Shown piece by piece: positions 18,001-30,000 of a stretch of DNA of 64,000 nucleotides; the first letter of the stretch is position 1, and each line of letters opens with the position of its first letter. A program made the position numbers. The stretch spans positions 19,220,001 to 19,284,000 of the forward strand of contig NC_135256.1 in assembly GCF_964204865.1 (NCBI RefSeq). Reading direction: 5' to 3'. The DNA is from Styela clava. Taxonomy: Eukaryota.

Positions 18001-21000
18001 GAAAATTGCTGTTGCATCTTTGCCTCAAGTCTTAATCCTTGATTTTGCGTAATTTTGTGCTTTACACATACTGCAATTATGTCATAGCCAAAATTCGTGC
18101 TACTCAATTATACGAAATTCATGTTTGATAACATGAGTTCACATGCATATAGAATGCCGAAAAACTTTTACACTGCTACGGCACGATTTTTTAAAATAGT
18201 TTAGAAAGTTTTCCACTCTGAGATATTTTCGAACGGCGTTCGTCCGCTTTATATTCATAATCATCCAATTCCAGTTTTCTGCAATTGTTCTTTTTCAGTT
18301 TTCAACAGCGTTTATTCAAGTTTGTAAAATTTCGTTTTTTAAACGGCTTTTTAGATACGAGGAAAAAGAATATACTGCATCAGGTTCTCGTATATCCCTA
18401 AAAACATTCCCTTTGTTCACTCAAATGTTTGTGTATATTTTGCATAAATTCGTGACTCGGCGGGACTTACATTCAGAAATTCAAATCGTCTTTTAATACT
18501 ATTCTATTCTATACCTACATACTCTAATATGTGTATTTTAAAATTATAAAAAGTCATTTCTGATGACGTGATAAACAAAAAGCACTCGTGTTATCATATC
18601 ATAACTGAACGTTACCTCTTTCAACAATTCGTTAAAGTCATTAAGAACCTCAAGTTTGCCAATTGTTTGAAAAAGAACCCTTTCAGATCTCTCTTACCAG
18701 CAACAAACATTTTTATCGTGCGACCTTGATGATAAAACTTTTGTCAGATGAAAGAAAAATCCCACAGCATGCAAACTTATTTGCGGAGAGTAATGATAAA
18801 TAGACATCTCATGATTCACGTTCCAAAACAACCAACCACTTGTCTATTCGGATTACGTGAGGCTCATCGTTTGGTTCAAATGATTTACGGTCAGATACCA
18901 TGTCTTAATAATCTTCTGCTGAAAAAGCATTAAAACTTTTTCTAACAGTTTCTATCAGGTAAATATTAATAAAATATTCAAGTTTGCTTGTTTATTTAAA
19001 TGATAATGACTACAGGGCAAATTTTAATCAGTAACGTGGACGTGCTGACGTGAATGAAATAACCATCAGTGACAGCACATTTTTGCTGACGTTGTGGTAA
19101 CTGAGAACGCTCTTCCTATAGTCCGAAAGAATTGTTGCGAAGTTCTTTATTTTATTCAAACTCGCTGATATGATTCTAGCCAACTATATATTCTAGAAAA
19201 TGCAGTACTTTCTCAAGGCAGAGACCTATATCAGCTGTGATTTTAACAGTGTCCACTGACCAGGATTATGGTTGCCACAATACTCTCTTCGGGGCCATTA
19301 GGAGAAGCCCAAATATTTGCCCCCGGAACGGAATCATACAGTGTTGGGGAGACGCAAGTCACCTTTAATCAGCCCAAAACACACCAAAGATGAATAACTT
19401 AAAGTATATATATCAGCCAGTCTGTTTCAGGTATTTTATTGTCACTAAAATTACCTAATTTGATTGGTTTTAAATGCCACAATAACTACGTAAATTATGT
19501 GCTCAATACGATATAATTATAATATTAATTACTCCAATCGGTGGAAAATAATAACTCCGAGCAAAAATGCGATCCACGCCGTTGTGACTGCTTTTCTTTT
19601 ACTTCCTGCAATAAATAAATGAAATAATTAGATGTTTGTTTATTTTGACCAACCTCAAACTATAAGGTATTTTAAGTGGTCTCTACTATGAATATCTCAG
19701 CTAAGCAAAGCTGCACAAACAAATTGTTGCGAGGGAGAATGTGCTCTGGACCCTTGTGGGTCCACGAATCCCACTTGATTCAAATGTTAAATCCCGGCAA
19801 TTTATGAGACCAAATTGGTATGTATATTGCTAGCAACTATCAGCAGCAGTAATTGCATCAGTATAACTTATGAATCAATGAATACGGGATAAAAATAATT
19901 TTACTTTTGAATGGTTCCTGTTATATTCTGGAAGGATGTAAATAAATTCGCAAAAGGTTATACGGCATTAAATTTAAACAAAACAACAAATTTACAAGCT
20001 TCATTTTTTAATATATAGAAGATTGTTAGGTTATTATTATTGAATTTTTTATATTCGATTTTGATGATAACGAGGCCGGAATGAACTTTCTTTAAGCAAA
20101 GAGAAGTTGTCAAACTGAGTAAGGGACTTTTCTTATCAGGAACTGGTATCAAAATAAAAAAAATTAATTTCGGAACGGGATTGCGAGTCGGGCCAAATCA
20201 AATTTCGTCCGGTAGTCAGTATGCTTGTATTTAGAAAACATGGAACAGAAAAGCCAATCAAACGCATAATCAAATTTAATACCATTTGATATTTCACAAT
20301 TATGCTCATCTAAATTTCACTTACTGAATGAAACAACCTATTAAAATTAAATATTTTATGGCGTTAGTTCTATTGTTATTAGTTGATCTGTACTAAAAAC
20401 GAAACTAATCTGTACTGAGTAATCGTAAGCCAAAAGCAGACAGCCAAATGCAAAACAGGTTTCTCACCGTTTCCGCCGTCGTTATCATTACCACCATCAT
20501 CATCAAATATCAAAACCAGCGCGTTTGAAATGGTTTGCGGAGAAGATTCTTTGGTGGTGAGAGGAATCTCATCGTCGTCGTCATCCTCGACATCTTGGTT
20601 ATCACTATCATTCTTTGCTAAGTTAGCTCTAACAATAGAATCGTGCTGTAGAATTGATCTGTCAATATTATAATGGGTATATAAGTTATATATTATGTAA
20701 TACAGTAATTTGTTTTGTAACTTTAAGTTCCACATATTTTTCATGTATATAATAATTATTGAAATATTAGGAATAGATTCAAATAGATCAAATGAAGGCA
20801 ACAATAAATTATGGAATATTAAATGACTTATTAGCGATGTCTCATGACGAGAGCATGTCAGAACGAAAACATACACAACAACGCATTGTTGATGTATTAT
20901 ATGACGAAGAACATTGCAAGTACTGAAATGGCGTACCCAGTAGCAAAGCCGTTCACAAAATAAAACATTTACCTGTTGAAGACAGCTGATAGAATATTAC

Positions 21001-27000: not shown

Positions 27001-30000
27001 TCAATGAGTAGACATTGAACAATTTATTGATGTAACTCAAGCAGAAACATTTATTACCTTACTATTGGTGCATTGAGAGTTCTTGGTGGATTGTTAACAT
27101 TCCCAGTATCGCTTCTAATTCCGAGGTCTATTCCTAGCAGACCAACAGACCAGCGACCGTTACTTCCACGATATAAACCACCAATCCAAGCACCGCTAGC
27201 AAAGCTGTAAATGATACAAAAATGGAGGCTAATACCATAGAAGAGCACAATTTTTAGAAAATAATTCAACGCAGTTTTCTCAAACATCCGATATCATCCA
27301 TAGCACTCATAATAATTTATGAACTTAGTAACTGCTTGTCTTAAGTTACTGACATCTGCATGACAATTGTATTTTTTGCCATAATTGCTTTGACAGCAAG
27401 GAAGACGTCTTCAAAAACCATATGTTGAAATTGAATCAGTTTTGATGTAGAGAATGTGACAAAAAATCTAAACTTAAGATGTAACAACTATAATTGTTCA
27501 TAATGAGGCATATGAAAACTGCATTGTAACTTACATGATGTCAAAGTTCGATGACGATGTGATATTAGCGCGAAAGCTATTATAACCATACGCCCAATTT
27601 TCGTCAGGCTCATAAACAGTGCATTTGATTGCAGTAGAATGGGGGAAATCGTAACTAGATGCTCCATAAAGCGACCAACTTCCTCCATCATATGCTTCGA
27701 CTTGACTTAAAATCATACCGTCGTCGCACACTGGATTATTGGAGTCTCTTCTCCAACCAAGACGATAATTCATTTCAATCTATGAAAATAAGGAGGATGG
27801 AGAATGAGGACTTAATTTATTTAGGTAAAGATATAATATATTAAGGCAGGGGTCGGGAACCTTTTTGGTCAAGAGAGCCATGAAAGGTACATATTTTCAA
27901 TTGCATTTCCGCGCGAGCCATACAACAATTTTCATTACCTAATAATGTCTTGACTTTTTACTCAAAAGTCAACACATACAATGTCAATATATTTATTGCG
28001 ACTTTTGATGCTGCGTGTTGTCGCTCAGGGCCTCAAACGACTTCTCACATGCAGCACAAAGTGAAATCAACGATACTCATCACCTTTTCTTTTGAGCATC
28101 TCCGTAGTGCTTAAAAAATTAGATTCGCTGGTCCAACCTGAATATTACAAATAAACAGTAGGCCTACAAACTGACGGAATACCTTCCTTTATCGTCCCGC
28201 GACTATATCGCTTCGTAATATGTTCCAGAATCCCCTAGTTTGTCACAATGTCTGTCTGGTATTCTCTCGCATAATATAGACATGTCCAGGGCGCGAGTTC
28301 TCAAACGTATTGGCAAATTTTCTACCAAATTTGGCTATAAAAATGTTTGAAATCTGGTAACAATAGTAAGCTCAAAGTCTTAGAATATTTAATTTTTTTG
28401 GGAGCCATGGGTTCCCGTACTTCCTTCCCGTATACAATATTCTGTCTCCGCAATTTAGGTTGCGATCTATGCGTCTACCTCCAATCATGGTTTCCTGAAA
28501 ATAGAGCAAAATCTATGAAAATTAATTCTAACCTCATGATCATTTCCATTTGAGCTTATGAGCTTCCACGATGCTGTACCTCCACGAAAATGTGAACCTC
28601 CAACGACCGGGAGCGTTGTGCAAAGAATGGCGCACAAGATACCAGAAAGCATTGTATATTCTTCTAACATAAACAATTTAAAATAATATGTATTCTGCAA
28701 AATAAAAATGCTCGATATTAAGCGTGAATTAAGGCTCTTATCAATCAAATATCGCATGAATTCCGTTTCAGAAATTTCTATCTCATTTATCTTGAATATG
28801 TTTGAAAAGATGGTATTGATCTGACCCGTCCGATGGCACAGTTTGTAGAGCAGGATTGTTATTATCGAAGTTTTAAGATTTGTATCTCTGCCCTATTTTC
28901 AAGTGTTGCCTCCAAGATGACACAAAAAGACTGGAAGTTGCATAAAATTATATCAGAAATATACAGCTACATTTTGATATAAGCCAAAGCTCAAATCCCT
29001 CATTGTTCCATTCAGTTGATGGCAGCTGATGAGAGAAAAGTTGGATGCATTTTATTTTAAAATAATGCTAGATCACTTTTTAAATTTATATACAAATTCT
29101 ATGTTTTCAACGTTGCGCATTTTGGATTGCTAAGGAGTCAGGTATCTGTCTCAAAGACAACGCAAAGTGAACTAGAATAAATTTGTATCCCGGATTAATA
29201 TTGCCATTGAGGTATCAACTATACGTAATCCAACTGTAAAAAGAAAAAGTACTTGCCCCTTTTCTTATTCTGTTCTCGTTTTATTTCGAAAACTCGCGCA
29301 ACTCCTGTGTAATCATTAACGTTAACTTTTGAAATTCACTCAAGATGTTTCAAGCCCATCTCGCAGTCATGCTCAGTTTACAAATAATTTTACTTTCTTT
29401 TGTTTTATACCTTAACACCTTTTTGAAATTTTTTTTATGCGAAATAAACACATGGCAAATATTTACAATTTTAAATTTTGGAACAAAAAATTAAATGAAA
29501 ATATAGGAATAGCGGGCAATTGTTTTCAAGCTTTTTCAAATGATGAAATATTTTCATGCCACTGCAATTTTGGATAATTTTGATAGTATAATATATTTCC
29601 GGAAAGAAATTGGAATGAATGTACCAATAAATAATATTGTATTGTTGTCTTGAATACTAAGTAAGCTATGAGTTCATTTTATACATTGGCTCATAATATT
29701 ATTTTATAAATTAATCATTAGACCAATGTTACATATGAATTATATACTTCAACTTGACAGGTTTTCACCTCATAGTCGTTAGGAGGTAAAATTAGCGTAC
29801 TTATTGGTCGTGAATGAATCATTTTACTAAATTGTTGTTAATTTTTGTTACGATTCTTATTATTATTGTTGATGCTGTTCTTTCTCATTAATTCTGGATC
29901 AATCAATTTAAAATATTTCGTCTTAAAAATGGTATACACGTGGCTAAAAGCCAATTACTTTTTCTTAATTTTTTGCTTTTTCGTTTTAATTAAAGGGAAC

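What the first reader, a model, noticed from the sequence alone, without database searches (positions are those of the whole stretch)
20379..28652. Unusual architecture: Sib-like SHFRGG adhesion region fused to EGF-ZP with furin site and anchor-like tail
Seen: signal peptide; a ~370-aa region with SHFRGGTASW, RSDTGNVNNPP and DDDNDDVTCRYA..ECGDVC; EGF; ZP-N/ZP-C; RDKR split across the last splice junction; an acidic spacer; a hydrophobic C-terminus without a cytoplasmic tail. Established: ZP modules polymerise into extracellular filaments after furin cleavage. From memory the N-region resembles Dictyostelium Sib / invertebrate 'integrin beta-like' proteins; this needs confirming. Inference: a lineage-expanded family of filament-forming proteins displaying an adhesive domain (feeding-mucus net, tunic or egg coat). 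Best candidate here for an undescribed system.
Basis: partly seen in the sequence, partly recalled or inferred. Interest (0 to 1): 0.7.

Follow-up and report, generated by a model that had tools for sequence, protein, structure and literature searches.

The report
Sea-squirt ZP protein with Sib-like head
This is an intact but functionally unstudied sea-squirt gene for a zona-pellucida-type filament protein that carries a three-domain, cadherin-like "Sib-type" head, a domain combination that turns out to be common across invertebrate animals rather than unusual.

Summary
The gene is real. It lies on the minus strand and is Styela clava LOC120328850, named "uncharacterized protein" in RefSeq. 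All 16 coding exons (28652..19529, all GT-AG) translate exactly into RefSeq isoform X1 (786 aa).

Its 3' end is wrong. The tail it read is read-through of an intron. The true last exon (19605-19529) lies outside its coordinates and encodes a hydrophobic helix followed by 3 residues.

The N-region (aa 20-382) is a confidently modelled three-domain beta module. Its relatives hit Pfam PF24907 (SIBA-E_N), so the Sib recollection holds for this module only. There is no VWA domain and no talin-binding tail.

The fusion is not unusual. The same head plus EGF/ZP occurs in Ciona, Clavelina, amphioxus, echinoderms, a bivalve and corals. The head alone occurs in secreted proteins of Bacteroidota.

Most likely it is a membrane-tethered precursor that a furin-like protease cleaves, and that then polymerises through its ZP module with the head displayed. 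The tissue is unknown.

A 5'-truncated, decaying duplicate of the gene lies downstream. I rate it a new member of a known kind, of modest interest.

The parts
19529..28652 (-). Whole coding span of Styela clava LOC120328850: 16 coding exons, 2361 nt including the stop, 786 aa (isoform X1).
   Evidence: Each exon was translated separately. All 16 peptides are exact, consecutive substrings of P0171 (XP_077970702.1), and all introns are GT-AG.
28533..28652 (-). Exon 1: signal-peptide-like start (aa 1-19) and the SHFRGGTASW start of domain D1.
27535..27779 (-). Exon 2 (D1 core, aa 41-122).
   Evidence: This exon alone retrieved the RefSeq proteins P0001 and P0002.
27058..27204 (-). Exon 3: end of D1, the RSDTGNVNNPP linker motif and the start of D2.
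26839..26977 (-). Exon 4: D2 with DDDNDDVTCRYA..ECGDVC. D186, D190 and C194 are invariant, and D188, R195, E202, C203 and C207 are at least 90% conserved, in 75 sequences.
24286..24445 (-). Exon 5 (D2, includes IPLQFIID).
24076..24211 (-). Exon 6 (D2/D3 boundary).
23607..23762 (-). Exon 7 (D3).
23491..23531 (-). Exon 8 (end of D3, 41 nt).
23265..23393 (-). Exon 9: EGF-like domain (7 Cys). It is a phase 1-1 cassette exon, present in isoform X1 and skipped in X2.
22673..22851 (-). Exon 10 (ZP-N, first part).
22087..22344 (-). Exon 11: end of ZP-N, the interdomain linker and the start of ZP-C.
21667..21839 (-). Exon 12 (ZP-C).
21265..21394 (-). Exon 13 (ZP-C).
21107..21186 (-). Exon 14: end of ZP-C and R-D-K plus 2 nt of the last Arg of the furin-type site.
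20468..20658 (-). Exon 15: completes RDKR. It then encodes the acidic region with the candidate external hydrophobic patch TISNALVLIF (aa 740-749, 20534-20505).
19529..19605 (-). Exon 16, outside the finding's coordinates: SKRK, a hydrophobic helix (aa 767-783), HRLE and the stop.
20380..20467 (-). It is intron 15 read through from the exon-15 donor to an in-frame stop.
11497..16494 (-). Copy B, a 5'-truncated duplicate of exons 5-16. It belongs to a tandem duplication, 11212-17520 matching 19242-25465, whose break lies inside intron 4 of the gene. Older RefSeq models call it 'uromodulin-like' or 'OIT3-like'.
   Evidence: Exons 1-4 are absent. Two exons carry indels that are not multiples of three, and one donor site is changed.
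1..120 (-). First exon of the neighbouring paralog LOC120328647 (P0002). The rest of that gene lies beyond the window.

Best explanation
The locus is an intact gene, Styela clava LOC120328850. It encodes a mosaic extracellular protein with these parts, in order:
- a signal peptide;
- a rigid three-domain, all-beta, cadherin-like head (D1 of the SIBA-E_N type, then two Ig/cadherin-like domains with invariant acidic motifs);
- an optional EGF domain;
- a ZP module of the uromodulin type;
- a furin-type site, RDKR;
- an acidic propeptide with a hydrophobic patch;
- a C-terminal hydrophobic anchor with almost no cytoplasmic tail.

Proposed mechanism (inferred from established ZP-protein biology; no step has been shown for this protein): the precursor is held at the secreting cell's surface by the C-terminal anchor. 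Cleavage at RDKR removes the propeptide that blocks polymerisation. The ZP modules then assemble head-to-tail into extracellular filaments, from which the Sib-type heads project as binding surfaces, probably stiffened by Ca2+. Skipping exon 9 changes the spacer between head and filament.

The protein is one member of an old, widespread and uncharacterised metazoan family (Sib-type head + EGF/other domains + ZP). It is not a novel fusion.
For: Shown here:
- The exon model matches RefSeq X1 exactly, 16 of 16 exons. X2 lacks exon 9.
- ZP-C: PF00100, E 3e-23.
- AlphaFold2 model of P0171: mean pLDDT 80, with aa 20-382 almost all above 90.
- Foldseek best hits are uromodulin filaments 7pfp and 6zya (E about 1e-14), then ZPD and ZP3.
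- An N-module-only relative, P0070, models at pLDDT 94 and pTM 0.90. It resembles protocadherin and cadherin EC arrays (best E 3e-7; 209 matches at E<=1e-3).
- Link to SIBA-E_N: 16 of 75 members and 5 of 5 bacterial relatives. P0171 aa 19-386 aligns with Acropora P0045 aa 40-406 (31% identity, E 8e-43), and P0045's aa 44-171 is a PF24907 hit. P0171 aa 17-201 aligns with a Hyunsoonleella ORF (E 2e-5).
- The architecture is conserved. ZP-C is present in 15 of 41 relatives, including Ciona intestinalis LOC100180926, Clavelina, Branchiostoma, Patiria, Antedon, Anneissia, Mercenaria, Montipora and Acropora. The EGF+ZP half also aligns with the coral protein (E 8e-29).
- 20 of the 21 ZP-bearing members listed have an R-x-[KR]-R motif in their last 170 residues. 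In several of them the only such motif lies after the hydrophobic stretch.

Inferred: furin cleavage, polymerisation, Ca2+ binding at the invariant D186/D188/D190, N159/P162 and E240/D241, and display of the head.
Against: - P0171 itself does not hit PF24907 or the Pfam ZP-N model, even at E<=10. Both assignments rest on relatives and on structure.
- The region after the furin site (aa 694-768) is modelled with pLDDT below 50, so docking of an external hydrophobic patch is not shown.
- The Styela tail (3 residues after the hydrophobic stretch; 0 in paralog P0002) differs from most relatives, which have 16-76 cytoplasmic residues. I could not decide between a GPI anchor and a tail-less transmembrane helix.
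- Some ZP proteins (endoglin, betaglycan; from established knowledge) do not polymerise.
- I have no expression, proteomic or localisation data.
- The EGF exon has 7 Cys and the ZP-N region 5 Cys, so the disulfide pattern is not canonical.
Confidence: 0.7

Rival explanations
1. It is a non-polymerising cell-surface receptor or adhesion molecule. The ZP module would serve only as a stalk or dimerisation unit (as in endoglin and betaglycan), and the Sib-type head would mediate cell-matrix or cell-cell contact directly from the membrane.
For: The head family also occurs on clear membrane receptors and adhesion-type proteins: a Mytilus adhesion GPCR with HRM-GAIN-GPS-7tm2, and proteins rich in Sushi or SRCR domains. 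Most ZP-bearing relatives keep a transmembrane helix and a 16-76-residue cytoplasmic tail. Foldseek also lists the endoglin ZP module (5hzv, E 6.5e-7). Dictyostelium Sib proteins are substrate-adhesion receptors (PMC9197732, passages read).
Against: The best structural matches are polymerising ZP proteins (uromodulin, ZPD, ZP3), with E-values 6-7 orders of magnitude better than endoglin. A furin-type site directly after ZP-C plus a downstream hydrophobic patch is the arrangement of polymerising ZP precursors (established knowledge). The Styela protein has no cytoplasmic tail to signal through.
Confidence: 0.2
2. It is a gene-model artefact. The Sib-like 5' half (exons 1-8) and the EGF-ZP 3' half (exons 9-16) would belong to separate transcripts, and the true ZP gene would look like the truncated copy B ('uromodulin-like').
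For: A copy with only exons 5-16 lies next door and was modelled by RefSeq as a protein of its own (P0005, P0176). I could not see RNA-seq.
Against: - The duplication break lies inside intron 4, not between the two halves. Copy B therefore still carries half of D2 and all of D3, lacks a signal peptide, and shows frame-disrupting indels in two exons plus a changed donor.
- The head + ZP order is conserved in at least nine other named genera from four phyla.
- Both halves align with one coral protein.
- All splice phases are compatible.
Confidence: 0.03
3. It is a plain ortholog of a characterised vertebrate ZP gene (uromodulin, GP2 or OIT3), as the automatic names of copy B suggest.
For: RefSeq names for copy B are 'uromodulin-like' and 'oncoprotein-induced transcript 3 protein-like'. 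Uromodulin is the best structural match for the ZP module.
Against: Identity to uromodulin in the structural alignments is only 16-20%, and the sequence match to PDB is confined to ZP-C (E 2.7e-5 to ZP2, 1.1e-3 to a chain named uromodulin). Pfam finds no D8C domain and no uromodulin-type EGF trio in P0171. The 360-aa head has no counterpart among solved structures by sequence.
Confidence: 0.03

Closest known systems
Uromodulin / GP2 / tectorin-type polymerising ZP-module proteins
   Same: ZP-N + ZP-C module, with uromodulin filaments as the best structural match. An EGF domain lies directly before the ZP module. A basic cleavage site follows ZP-C, then a propeptide and a C-terminal hydrophobic anchor. 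The very short tail recalls the GPI-anchored members (recalled, not tested).
   Different: There is no D8C domain and only one (optional) EGF. The head is a Sib-type three-domain module instead. About 45 acidic residues separate the cleavage site from the candidate hydrophobic patch. The Cys count is non-canonical. Polymerisation has not been shown.
Dictyostelium SibA-E ('integrin beta-like proteins'), Pfam PF24907 SIBA-E_N and PF24910 Ig_SIBA-E_3rd
   Same: The N-terminal module sits directly after the signal peptide. Relatives of the Styela head hit PF24907, and one bacterial relative hits PF24910 weakly.
   Different: Pfam finds no VWA domain in P0171. There is no glycine-rich transmembrane segment followed by an NPXY tail: the tail is 3 residues. 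The Sib features are taken from PMC9197732 (passages). P0171 itself is below Pfam detection for PF24907. I did not fetch a Sib sequence.
Uncharacterised metazoan head+ZP proteins, for example Ciona intestinalis LOC100180926, Branchiostoma floridae LOC118417560 and Acropora millepora LOC114963338
   Same: Same order of parts: head, EGF, ZP, basic site, anchor. Identity is 36% over 91% of the length to the Ciona protein, and 31% (head) and 26% (EGF-ZP) to the Acropora protein.
   Different: The relatives add CUB, D8C, FN3, SRCR or many EGFs between head and ZP, and most have a real cytoplasmic tail. None has a published function that I could find.
Ascidian vitelline-coat ZP proteins (CiVC57, HrVC70/120, HrVLP-1/2)
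   Same: They are ascidian proteins with EGF + ZP, and some have a C-terminal transmembrane segment (PMC9265791, passages read).
   Different: They are described with a VWF domain and/or 1-24 EGF repeats. The passages I read mention no Sib-type head.
Bacteroidota secreted surface proteins with SIBA-E_N + He_PIG + HYR + a type IX secretion sorting tail (loci L001-L007)
   Same: A signal peptide is followed at once by A-SHFRGGT..W, and the same three-domain head follows.
   Different: They are bacterial, have no ZP or EGF, and carry a type IX sorting domain. Identity is about 24%.

Membership tests
ZP-module proteins | ZP-C domain | tested here: met
   PF00100: E 3e-23, 82.8 bits against a cut-off of 24.6, aa 554-685. 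Exon-level hits in exons 12 and 13. PDB sequence hits to ZP2 and to a chain named uromodulin.
ZP-module proteins | ZP-N domain preceding ZP-C | tested here: met
   The Pfam ZP-N model (PF23344) does not hit P0171, but it does hit the Ciona and Clavelina orthologs (E 1e-10 and 5e-8). Foldseek aligns 270-585 columns, spanning both halves of the module, to uromodulin, ZPD and ZP3.
ZP-module proteins (polymerising type) | Basic (furin-type) cleavage site just after ZP-C | tested here: met
   RDKR at aa 695-698, six residues after the last ZP-C Cys. 20 of 21 ZP-bearing relatives have R-x-[KR]-R in the last 170 residues, not always before the anchor. Cleavage itself was not tested.
ZP-module proteins (polymerising type) | External hydrophobic patch between the cleavage site and the anchor | tested here: inconclusive
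   The candidate TISNALVLIF (aa 740-749) is identical in paralog P0002, but the model has pLDDT below 50 there.
ZP-module proteins (polymerising type) | C-terminal membrane anchor (transmembrane or GPI) | tested here: met
   Hydrophobic 17-mer at aa 767-783 (mean Kyte-Doolittle 2.04), modelled as a helix at 767-785, with 3 residues after it. Transmembrane versus GPI cannot be tested with these tools.
ZP-module proteins (polymerising type) | Forms extracellular filaments | not testable with these tools
   This needs native material (electron microscopy or proteomics).
Dictyostelium Sib (integrin beta-like) family | SIBA-E_N N-terminal domain (PF24907) | tested here: inconclusive
   P0171 gives no hit at E<=10. 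16 of 75 aligned relatives and 5 of 5 bacterial relatives do hit, and P0171 aligns with those relatives over the same residues.
Dictyostelium Sib (integrin beta-like) family | Extracellular VWA domain | tested here: not met
   No VWA family among the Pfam hits of P0171 at E<=10.
Dictyostelium Sib (integrin beta-like) family | Transmembrane segment followed by a cytosolic tail with talin-binding NPXY | tested here: not met
   Only HRLE follows the hydrophobic stretch. The Sib feature is taken from PMC9197732.
Uromodulin / OIT3 orthologs | D8C domain and several calcium-binding EGFs before the ZP module | tested here: not met
   Pfam finds only a weak single EGF (E 0.0066) and no D8C in P0171. 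D8C does occur in coral relatives.
Cadherin superfamily | Pfam cadherin repeats with Ca2+-binding linker motifs | tested here: inconclusive
   No Pfam Cadherin or He_PIG hit in P0171. There is fold-level resemblance to protocadherin EC1-4 in the relative P0070 (E 3e-7, TM about 0.2). He_PIG is found in 3 of 5 bacterial relatives. The acidic motifs are invariant, but their reading as Ca2+ ligands is inference.

The most novel reading that the evidence does not exclude
The Sib-type head + ZP proteins, conserved from corals to sea squirts, may be an undescribed class of apical extracellular filaments that present a Ca2+-stiffened, cadherin-like binding head. The head's strictly N-terminal position is shared by animals and Bacteroidota: X-His-Phe-Arg-Gly-Gly comes directly after the signal peptide in 78 of the 84 motif-bearing representatives and in 7 of 7 bacterial loci. 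This would mark a functional site at the mature N-terminus (ligand or metal binding) that has been kept, or transferred, across kingdoms.
Probability: 0.15. Interest if true: 0.6.

Novelty: new member of a known kind. Interest (0 to 1): 0.3.

Why it matters
ZP-module proteins build egg coats, the kidney's uromodulin network, the tectorial membrane of the inner ear and insect cuticle matrices. What each filament does is set by the domains it displays.

This gene shows that a head so far curated only from Dictyostelium adhesion receptors is one of the commoner decorations of ZP filaments in invertebrates, and no member has been studied. In an ascidian the candidate sites (egg coat, tunic, feeding mucus) are all biologically interesting.

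The practical value of this check is a corrected gene model, a domain map, and the recognition that the fusion is old and widespread rather than a local oddity.

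Tried and rejected
- Exon-by-exon Pfam scan: only EGF and ZP-C fragments hit; nothing for the head.
- Sequence search of PDB with paralog P0002 and with the family profile A2: no solved relative of the head.
- ESM Atlas search with aa 18-382: only 'hypothetical protein' clusters (score 0.91), plus a He_PIG lead at 0.88. I used it as a lead only.
- Foldseek with the full-length model and with the head-only model of a relative: only generic cadherin and Ig arrays for the head. 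I could not isolate the fold of D1, because a model cannot be cropped and I did not hand in partial sequences.
- Pfam at E<=10 on P0171: no SIBA-E_N, He_PIG or Cadherin hit.
- Third word-indexed protein search, with profile A2: only 14 proteins, too few for a taxonomic census.
- Literature: 0 papers for 'SHFRGG'; 0 for the LOC and XP identifiers; 0 for 'Styela clava' + 'uromodulin'; 0 for 'integrin beta-like protein' + 'zona pellucida'. One irrelevant paper for 'Styela clava' + 'zona pellucida'.
- The Ciona egg-coat proteome paper (PMC2666592) is not held, so I could not check whether the Ciona ortholog is an egg-coat protein.
- The search for related loci with alignment A3 failed for lack of a conserved stretch. 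I repeated it with A1.
- Rejected: two separate genes, a uromodulin/OIT3 ortholog, and membership of the Sib family (see the rival explanations and membership tests).

Full report
**1. What is in the sequence**

The window has no N and about 35% G+C. The feature lies on the minus strand.

For full-length analyses I used the public proteins that those searches returned.

Fifteen stop-free stretches were scanned against Pfam one by one. Only the EGF stretch (FXa_inhibition, E 4.7e-5) and two ZP-C pieces (E 3.7e-5 and 0.012) matched. The 5' stretches matched nothing.

A protein search with exon 2 alone (82 aa, longer proteins allowed) returned two Styela clava RefSeq proteins:
- P0001, 'uncharacterized protein LOC120328850 isoform X2' (743 aa, 95% identity);
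- P0002, LOC120328647 (759 aa, 66% identity).

The window is therefore ascidian DNA.

**2. Gene model**

I aligned P0001 and P0002 to the window with tblastn and read the junction contexts. This gave 16 coding exons:

| Exon | Window coordinates |
|---|---|
| 1 | 28652-28533 |
| 2 | 27779-27535 |
| 3 | 27204-27058 |
| 4 | 26977-26839 |
| 5 | 24445-24286 |
| 6 | 24211-24076 |
| 7 | 23762-23607 |
| 8 | 23531-23491 |
| 9 | 23393-23265 |
| 10 | 22851-22673 |
| 11 | 22344-22087 |
| 12 | 21839-21667 |
| 13 | 21394-21265 |
| 14 | 21186-21107 |
| 15 | 20658-20468 |
| 16 | 19605-19529 |

A cluster look-up gave the current RefSeq isoform X1, XP_077970702.1 (P0171, 786 aa). Each of the 16 exons, translated separately, is an exact and consecutive substring of P0171. 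Every intron is GT-AG. Isoform X2 (P0172) skips exon 9, the EGF exon, which is a phase 1-1 cassette.

Its 3' end is wrong:
- RDKR is split across the exon 14/15 junction, which is the penultimate junction.
- The real last exon lies about 0.86 kb further on, outside the finding's coordinates. It encodes SKRK, a 16-17-residue hydrophobic stretch and HRLE.

The qualitative statement 'hydrophobic end, practically no cytoplasmic tail' survives.

**3. Domain anatomy of the 786-aa protein**

| Residues | Part |
|---|---|
| 1-19 | Hydrophobic leader |
| 20-167 | D1, starting SHFRGG |
| 168-274 | D2 |
| 275-382 | D3 |
| 383-425 | EGF (7 Cys) |
| 426-527 | ZP-N (5 Cys) |
| 528-553 | Low-confidence linker |
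| 554-694 | ZP-C (6 Cys; PF00100, E 3e-23) |
| 695-698 | RDKR |
| 699-762 | Acidic region (17 D/E of 64) with the patch TISNALVLIF, identical in paralog P0002 |
| 767-783 | Hydrophobic helix, then three residues |

AlphaFold2 with a 75-sequence alignment gave mean pLDDT 80. The head (aa 20-382) is almost entirely above 90 and all-beta. The stretch 694-768 is below 50.

Foldseek against PDB put uromodulin filaments first (7pfp, 6zya; E about 1e-14), followed by ZPD and ZP3.

**4. What the head is**

Searching with aa 1-360 of P0002 found relatives in:
- Branchiostoma floridae (head + 8 EGF + FN3 + ZP);
- the clam Mya arenaria (head + discoidin domain);
- the sea cucumber Holothuria leucospilota, where one relative is named 'Integrin beta-like protein A' by its source and another, named 'Hyalin', carries HYR repeats;
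- a rotifer.

A profile search of 1.84 billion representatives gave 5611 proteins at E<=1e-3 and 654 at E<=1e-30. These counts are inflated, because the 848-position profile also held EGF-rich columns.

Of the 150 best representatives, 84 carry an HF[RQKH][GHASN] motif, and in 78 of those 84 it lies within the first 45 residues. The other 66 lack the motif; they include EGF-only matches and N-terminally incomplete proteins.

Pfam on 41 of the hits showed PF24907, 'SIBA-E_N, Integrin beta-like protein A-E, N-terminal', over the first roughly 120-130 residues of four of them. In the 75-sequence alignment, 16 of 75 members reach PF24907 at E<=0.01.

P0171 itself does not reach PF24907, even at E<=10. 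It does align over the same residues with members that do:
- Acropora P0045: 31% identity, E 8e-43;
- a Hyunsoonleella ORF: 24% identity, E 2e-5.

A head-only relative (P0070) models at pLDDT 94.4 and pTM 0.90 as three packed beta-sandwich domains. Its nearest solved structures are protocadherin and cadherin EC arrays, then Ig arrays (best E 3e-7). The TM-scores are low, so this shows fold class only.

Invariant or near-invariant residues are N159, P162, D186, D188, D190, C194, R195, E240 and D241. I read them, by analogy with cadherin linkers, as probable Ca2+ ligands. This is inference.

The features that define Sib proteins are an extracellular VWA domain, a glycine-rich transmembrane segment and a talin-binding NPXY tail (PMC9197732, passages read). 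All are absent here.

**5. The fusion is common, not unusual**

ZP-C is present in 15 of the 41 relatives scanned and in 13 of 75 in alignment A2. Named examples:
- Ciona intestinalis LOC100180926 (36% identity over 91% of the length);
- Clavelina lepadiformis;
- Branchiostoma floridae;
- Patiria miniata;
- Antedon and Anneissia;
- Mercenaria mercenaria (with SRCR domains);
- the corals Montipora and Acropora (with CUB and, in Acropora, D8C).

Both halves of the Styela protein align with one Acropora protein: head E 8e-43, EGF+ZP E 8e-29. The combination therefore goes back at least to the cnidarian-bilaterian ancestor, or has been assembled repeatedly.

Other partners of the head are Sushi, SRCR, C-type lectin, NIDO, TSP1, an adhesion-GPCR cassette, and giant CARDB/RHS proteins of Nematostella and a crinoid. 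All these proteins are 'uncharacterized' or carry automatic names.

My literature searches found nothing on the motif, the gene identifiers or the domain pair. Paper supplements were closed and might hold expression or proteome tables that mention these genes.

**6. Bacterial relatives**

One scan of bacterial and archaeal genomes with the pattern SHFRG[GT][TIV]x[ST]W matched 21 stretches, of which 7 were confirmed: two Hyunsoonleella species, three Bacteroidota MAGs, a Chitinophagaceae MAG and a Deltaproteobacteria MAG.

In all 7, a signal-peptide-like start is followed at once by A-SHFRGGT..W. Pfam on five of them gave:
- SIBA-E_N in 5 of 5 (best 54 bits);
- He_PIG in 3 of 5;
- HYR in 3 of 5;
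- the type IX secretion sorting domain in 2 of 5;
- a weak hit to PF24910, 'Ig_SIBA-E_3rd', in one.

The head is thus a cross-kingdom module that always sits at the mature N-terminus.

**7. Mechanism**

Shown: the anatomy and the homologies described above.

Inferred from established ZP biology: the precursor is anchored by its C-terminus, cleavage at RDKR releases the blocking propeptide, and the ZP modules polymerise with the head displayed.

Among the 21 ZP-bearing relatives, most have a transmembrane helix and 16-76 cytoplasmic residues. The two Styela paralogs have 3 and 0 residues after the hydrophobic stretch. This fits either a GPI signal or a tail-less transmembrane helix, and no predictor was available to decide.

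The tissue is unknown. Ascidian egg-coat ZP proteins described in the review I read carry VWF and/or EGF repeats, with no mention of such a head (PMC9265791, passages). The primary Ciona egg-coat proteome paper is not held.

**8. Surroundings**

A tandem duplication (11212-17520 matching 19242-25465, 94.5-98% nucleotide identity) has its break inside intron 4. Downstream of the gene it created copy B, which:
- has exons 5-16 at 94.7-100% identity;
- lacks exons 1-4;
- has two exons with indels that are not multiples of three;
- has one changed donor site.

RefSeq models of copy B are called 'uromodulin-like' and 'OIT3-like'. The terminal exon recurs twice more, at 9720-9640 and 7225-7145, in units of about 2.5 kb.

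The first exon of paralog LOC120328647 lies at window 120-1.

**9. Verdict**

The gene is real, intact and already annotated, but it has not been studied experimentally. It is a ZP-module protein with a Sib-type cadherin-like head, and one member of a widespread family. I rate it a new member of a known kind, of modest interest.

Left unchecked:
- RNA-seq support for the exon connections;
- anchor type (GPI or transmembrane);
- the fold of D1 on its own;
- a direct comparison with a Dictyostelium Sib sequence;
- the closed collections (metagenome contigs, viral contigs);
- paper supplements.

Noticed in passing
window 11212-17520 (copy B exons 16494-11497, minus strand): A 5'-truncated tandem duplicate of the gene. 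Exons 5-16 are present at 94.7-100% nucleotide identity and exons 1-4 are absent. Two exons carry frame-disrupting indels and one donor site is changed. RefSeq has modelled it as 'uromodulin-like' or 'OIT3-like'. It could be a decaying paralog or an assembly duplicate.
   Followed up: yes
window 7145-7225, 9640-9720 and 11497-11577 (minus strand): The 77-nt terminal (anchor) exon recurs three more times at 96-100% identity. The copies sit inside repeat units of about 2.5 kb downstream of copy B (3645-5829 matches 7446-9641; 7145-8425 matches 9640-10926).
   Followed up: partly
window 1-120 (minus strand): First exon of the neighbouring paralog LOC120328647. The RefSeq protein P0002 starts at an internal Met (window 75). 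An in-frame Met at 120-118 would add a proper signal-peptide-like leader before SHFRGG, so the public model is probably short at its N-terminus.
   Followed up: partly
window 20380-20467 (minus strand): Read-through of the exon-15 donor also gives a hydrophobic tail, and tblastn aligned it weakly with the anchor of paralog P0002. It may be a relic of an older terminal exon or a retained-intron isoform.
   Followed up: no
L001-L007 (bacterial loci), match at about 2001-3100 in each: Bacteroidota and other bacteria encode secreted proteins whose mature N-terminus starts with the same SHFRGGT..W motif and the same three-domain head. Some also have HYR repeats and a type IX secretion tail. HYR is paired with this head in a sea-cucumber protein too (P0008).
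   Followed up: partly
window 62367-63998 (minus strand, runs off the window): A 544-codon open stretch with a reverse-transcriptase domain (RVT_1, E 4e-30), probably a retrotransposon copy. I only noted it.
   Followed up: no
window 43894-44397 (+), 46189-46617 (-), 38742-39074 (-): Other host-gene exons: a ribosomal L24e domain (E 1e-32), an Rdx-family (selenoprotein-like) domain (E 1e-11) and a TMEM107 fragment (E 1e-7).
   Followed up: no
window 47947-54460: A large inverted duplication (47947-49122 matching 54460-53273, 94.5% identity) filled with internal tandem repeats of about 100-500 bp. Long open stretches inside it have no Pfam match.
   Followed up: no
P0171 aa 383-527 (window 23391-22216): Odd cysteine counts: 7 in the EGF exon and 5 in ZP-N, which suggests an inter-domain disulfide. 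That bond would be lost in the isoform that skips exon 9.
   Followed up: no
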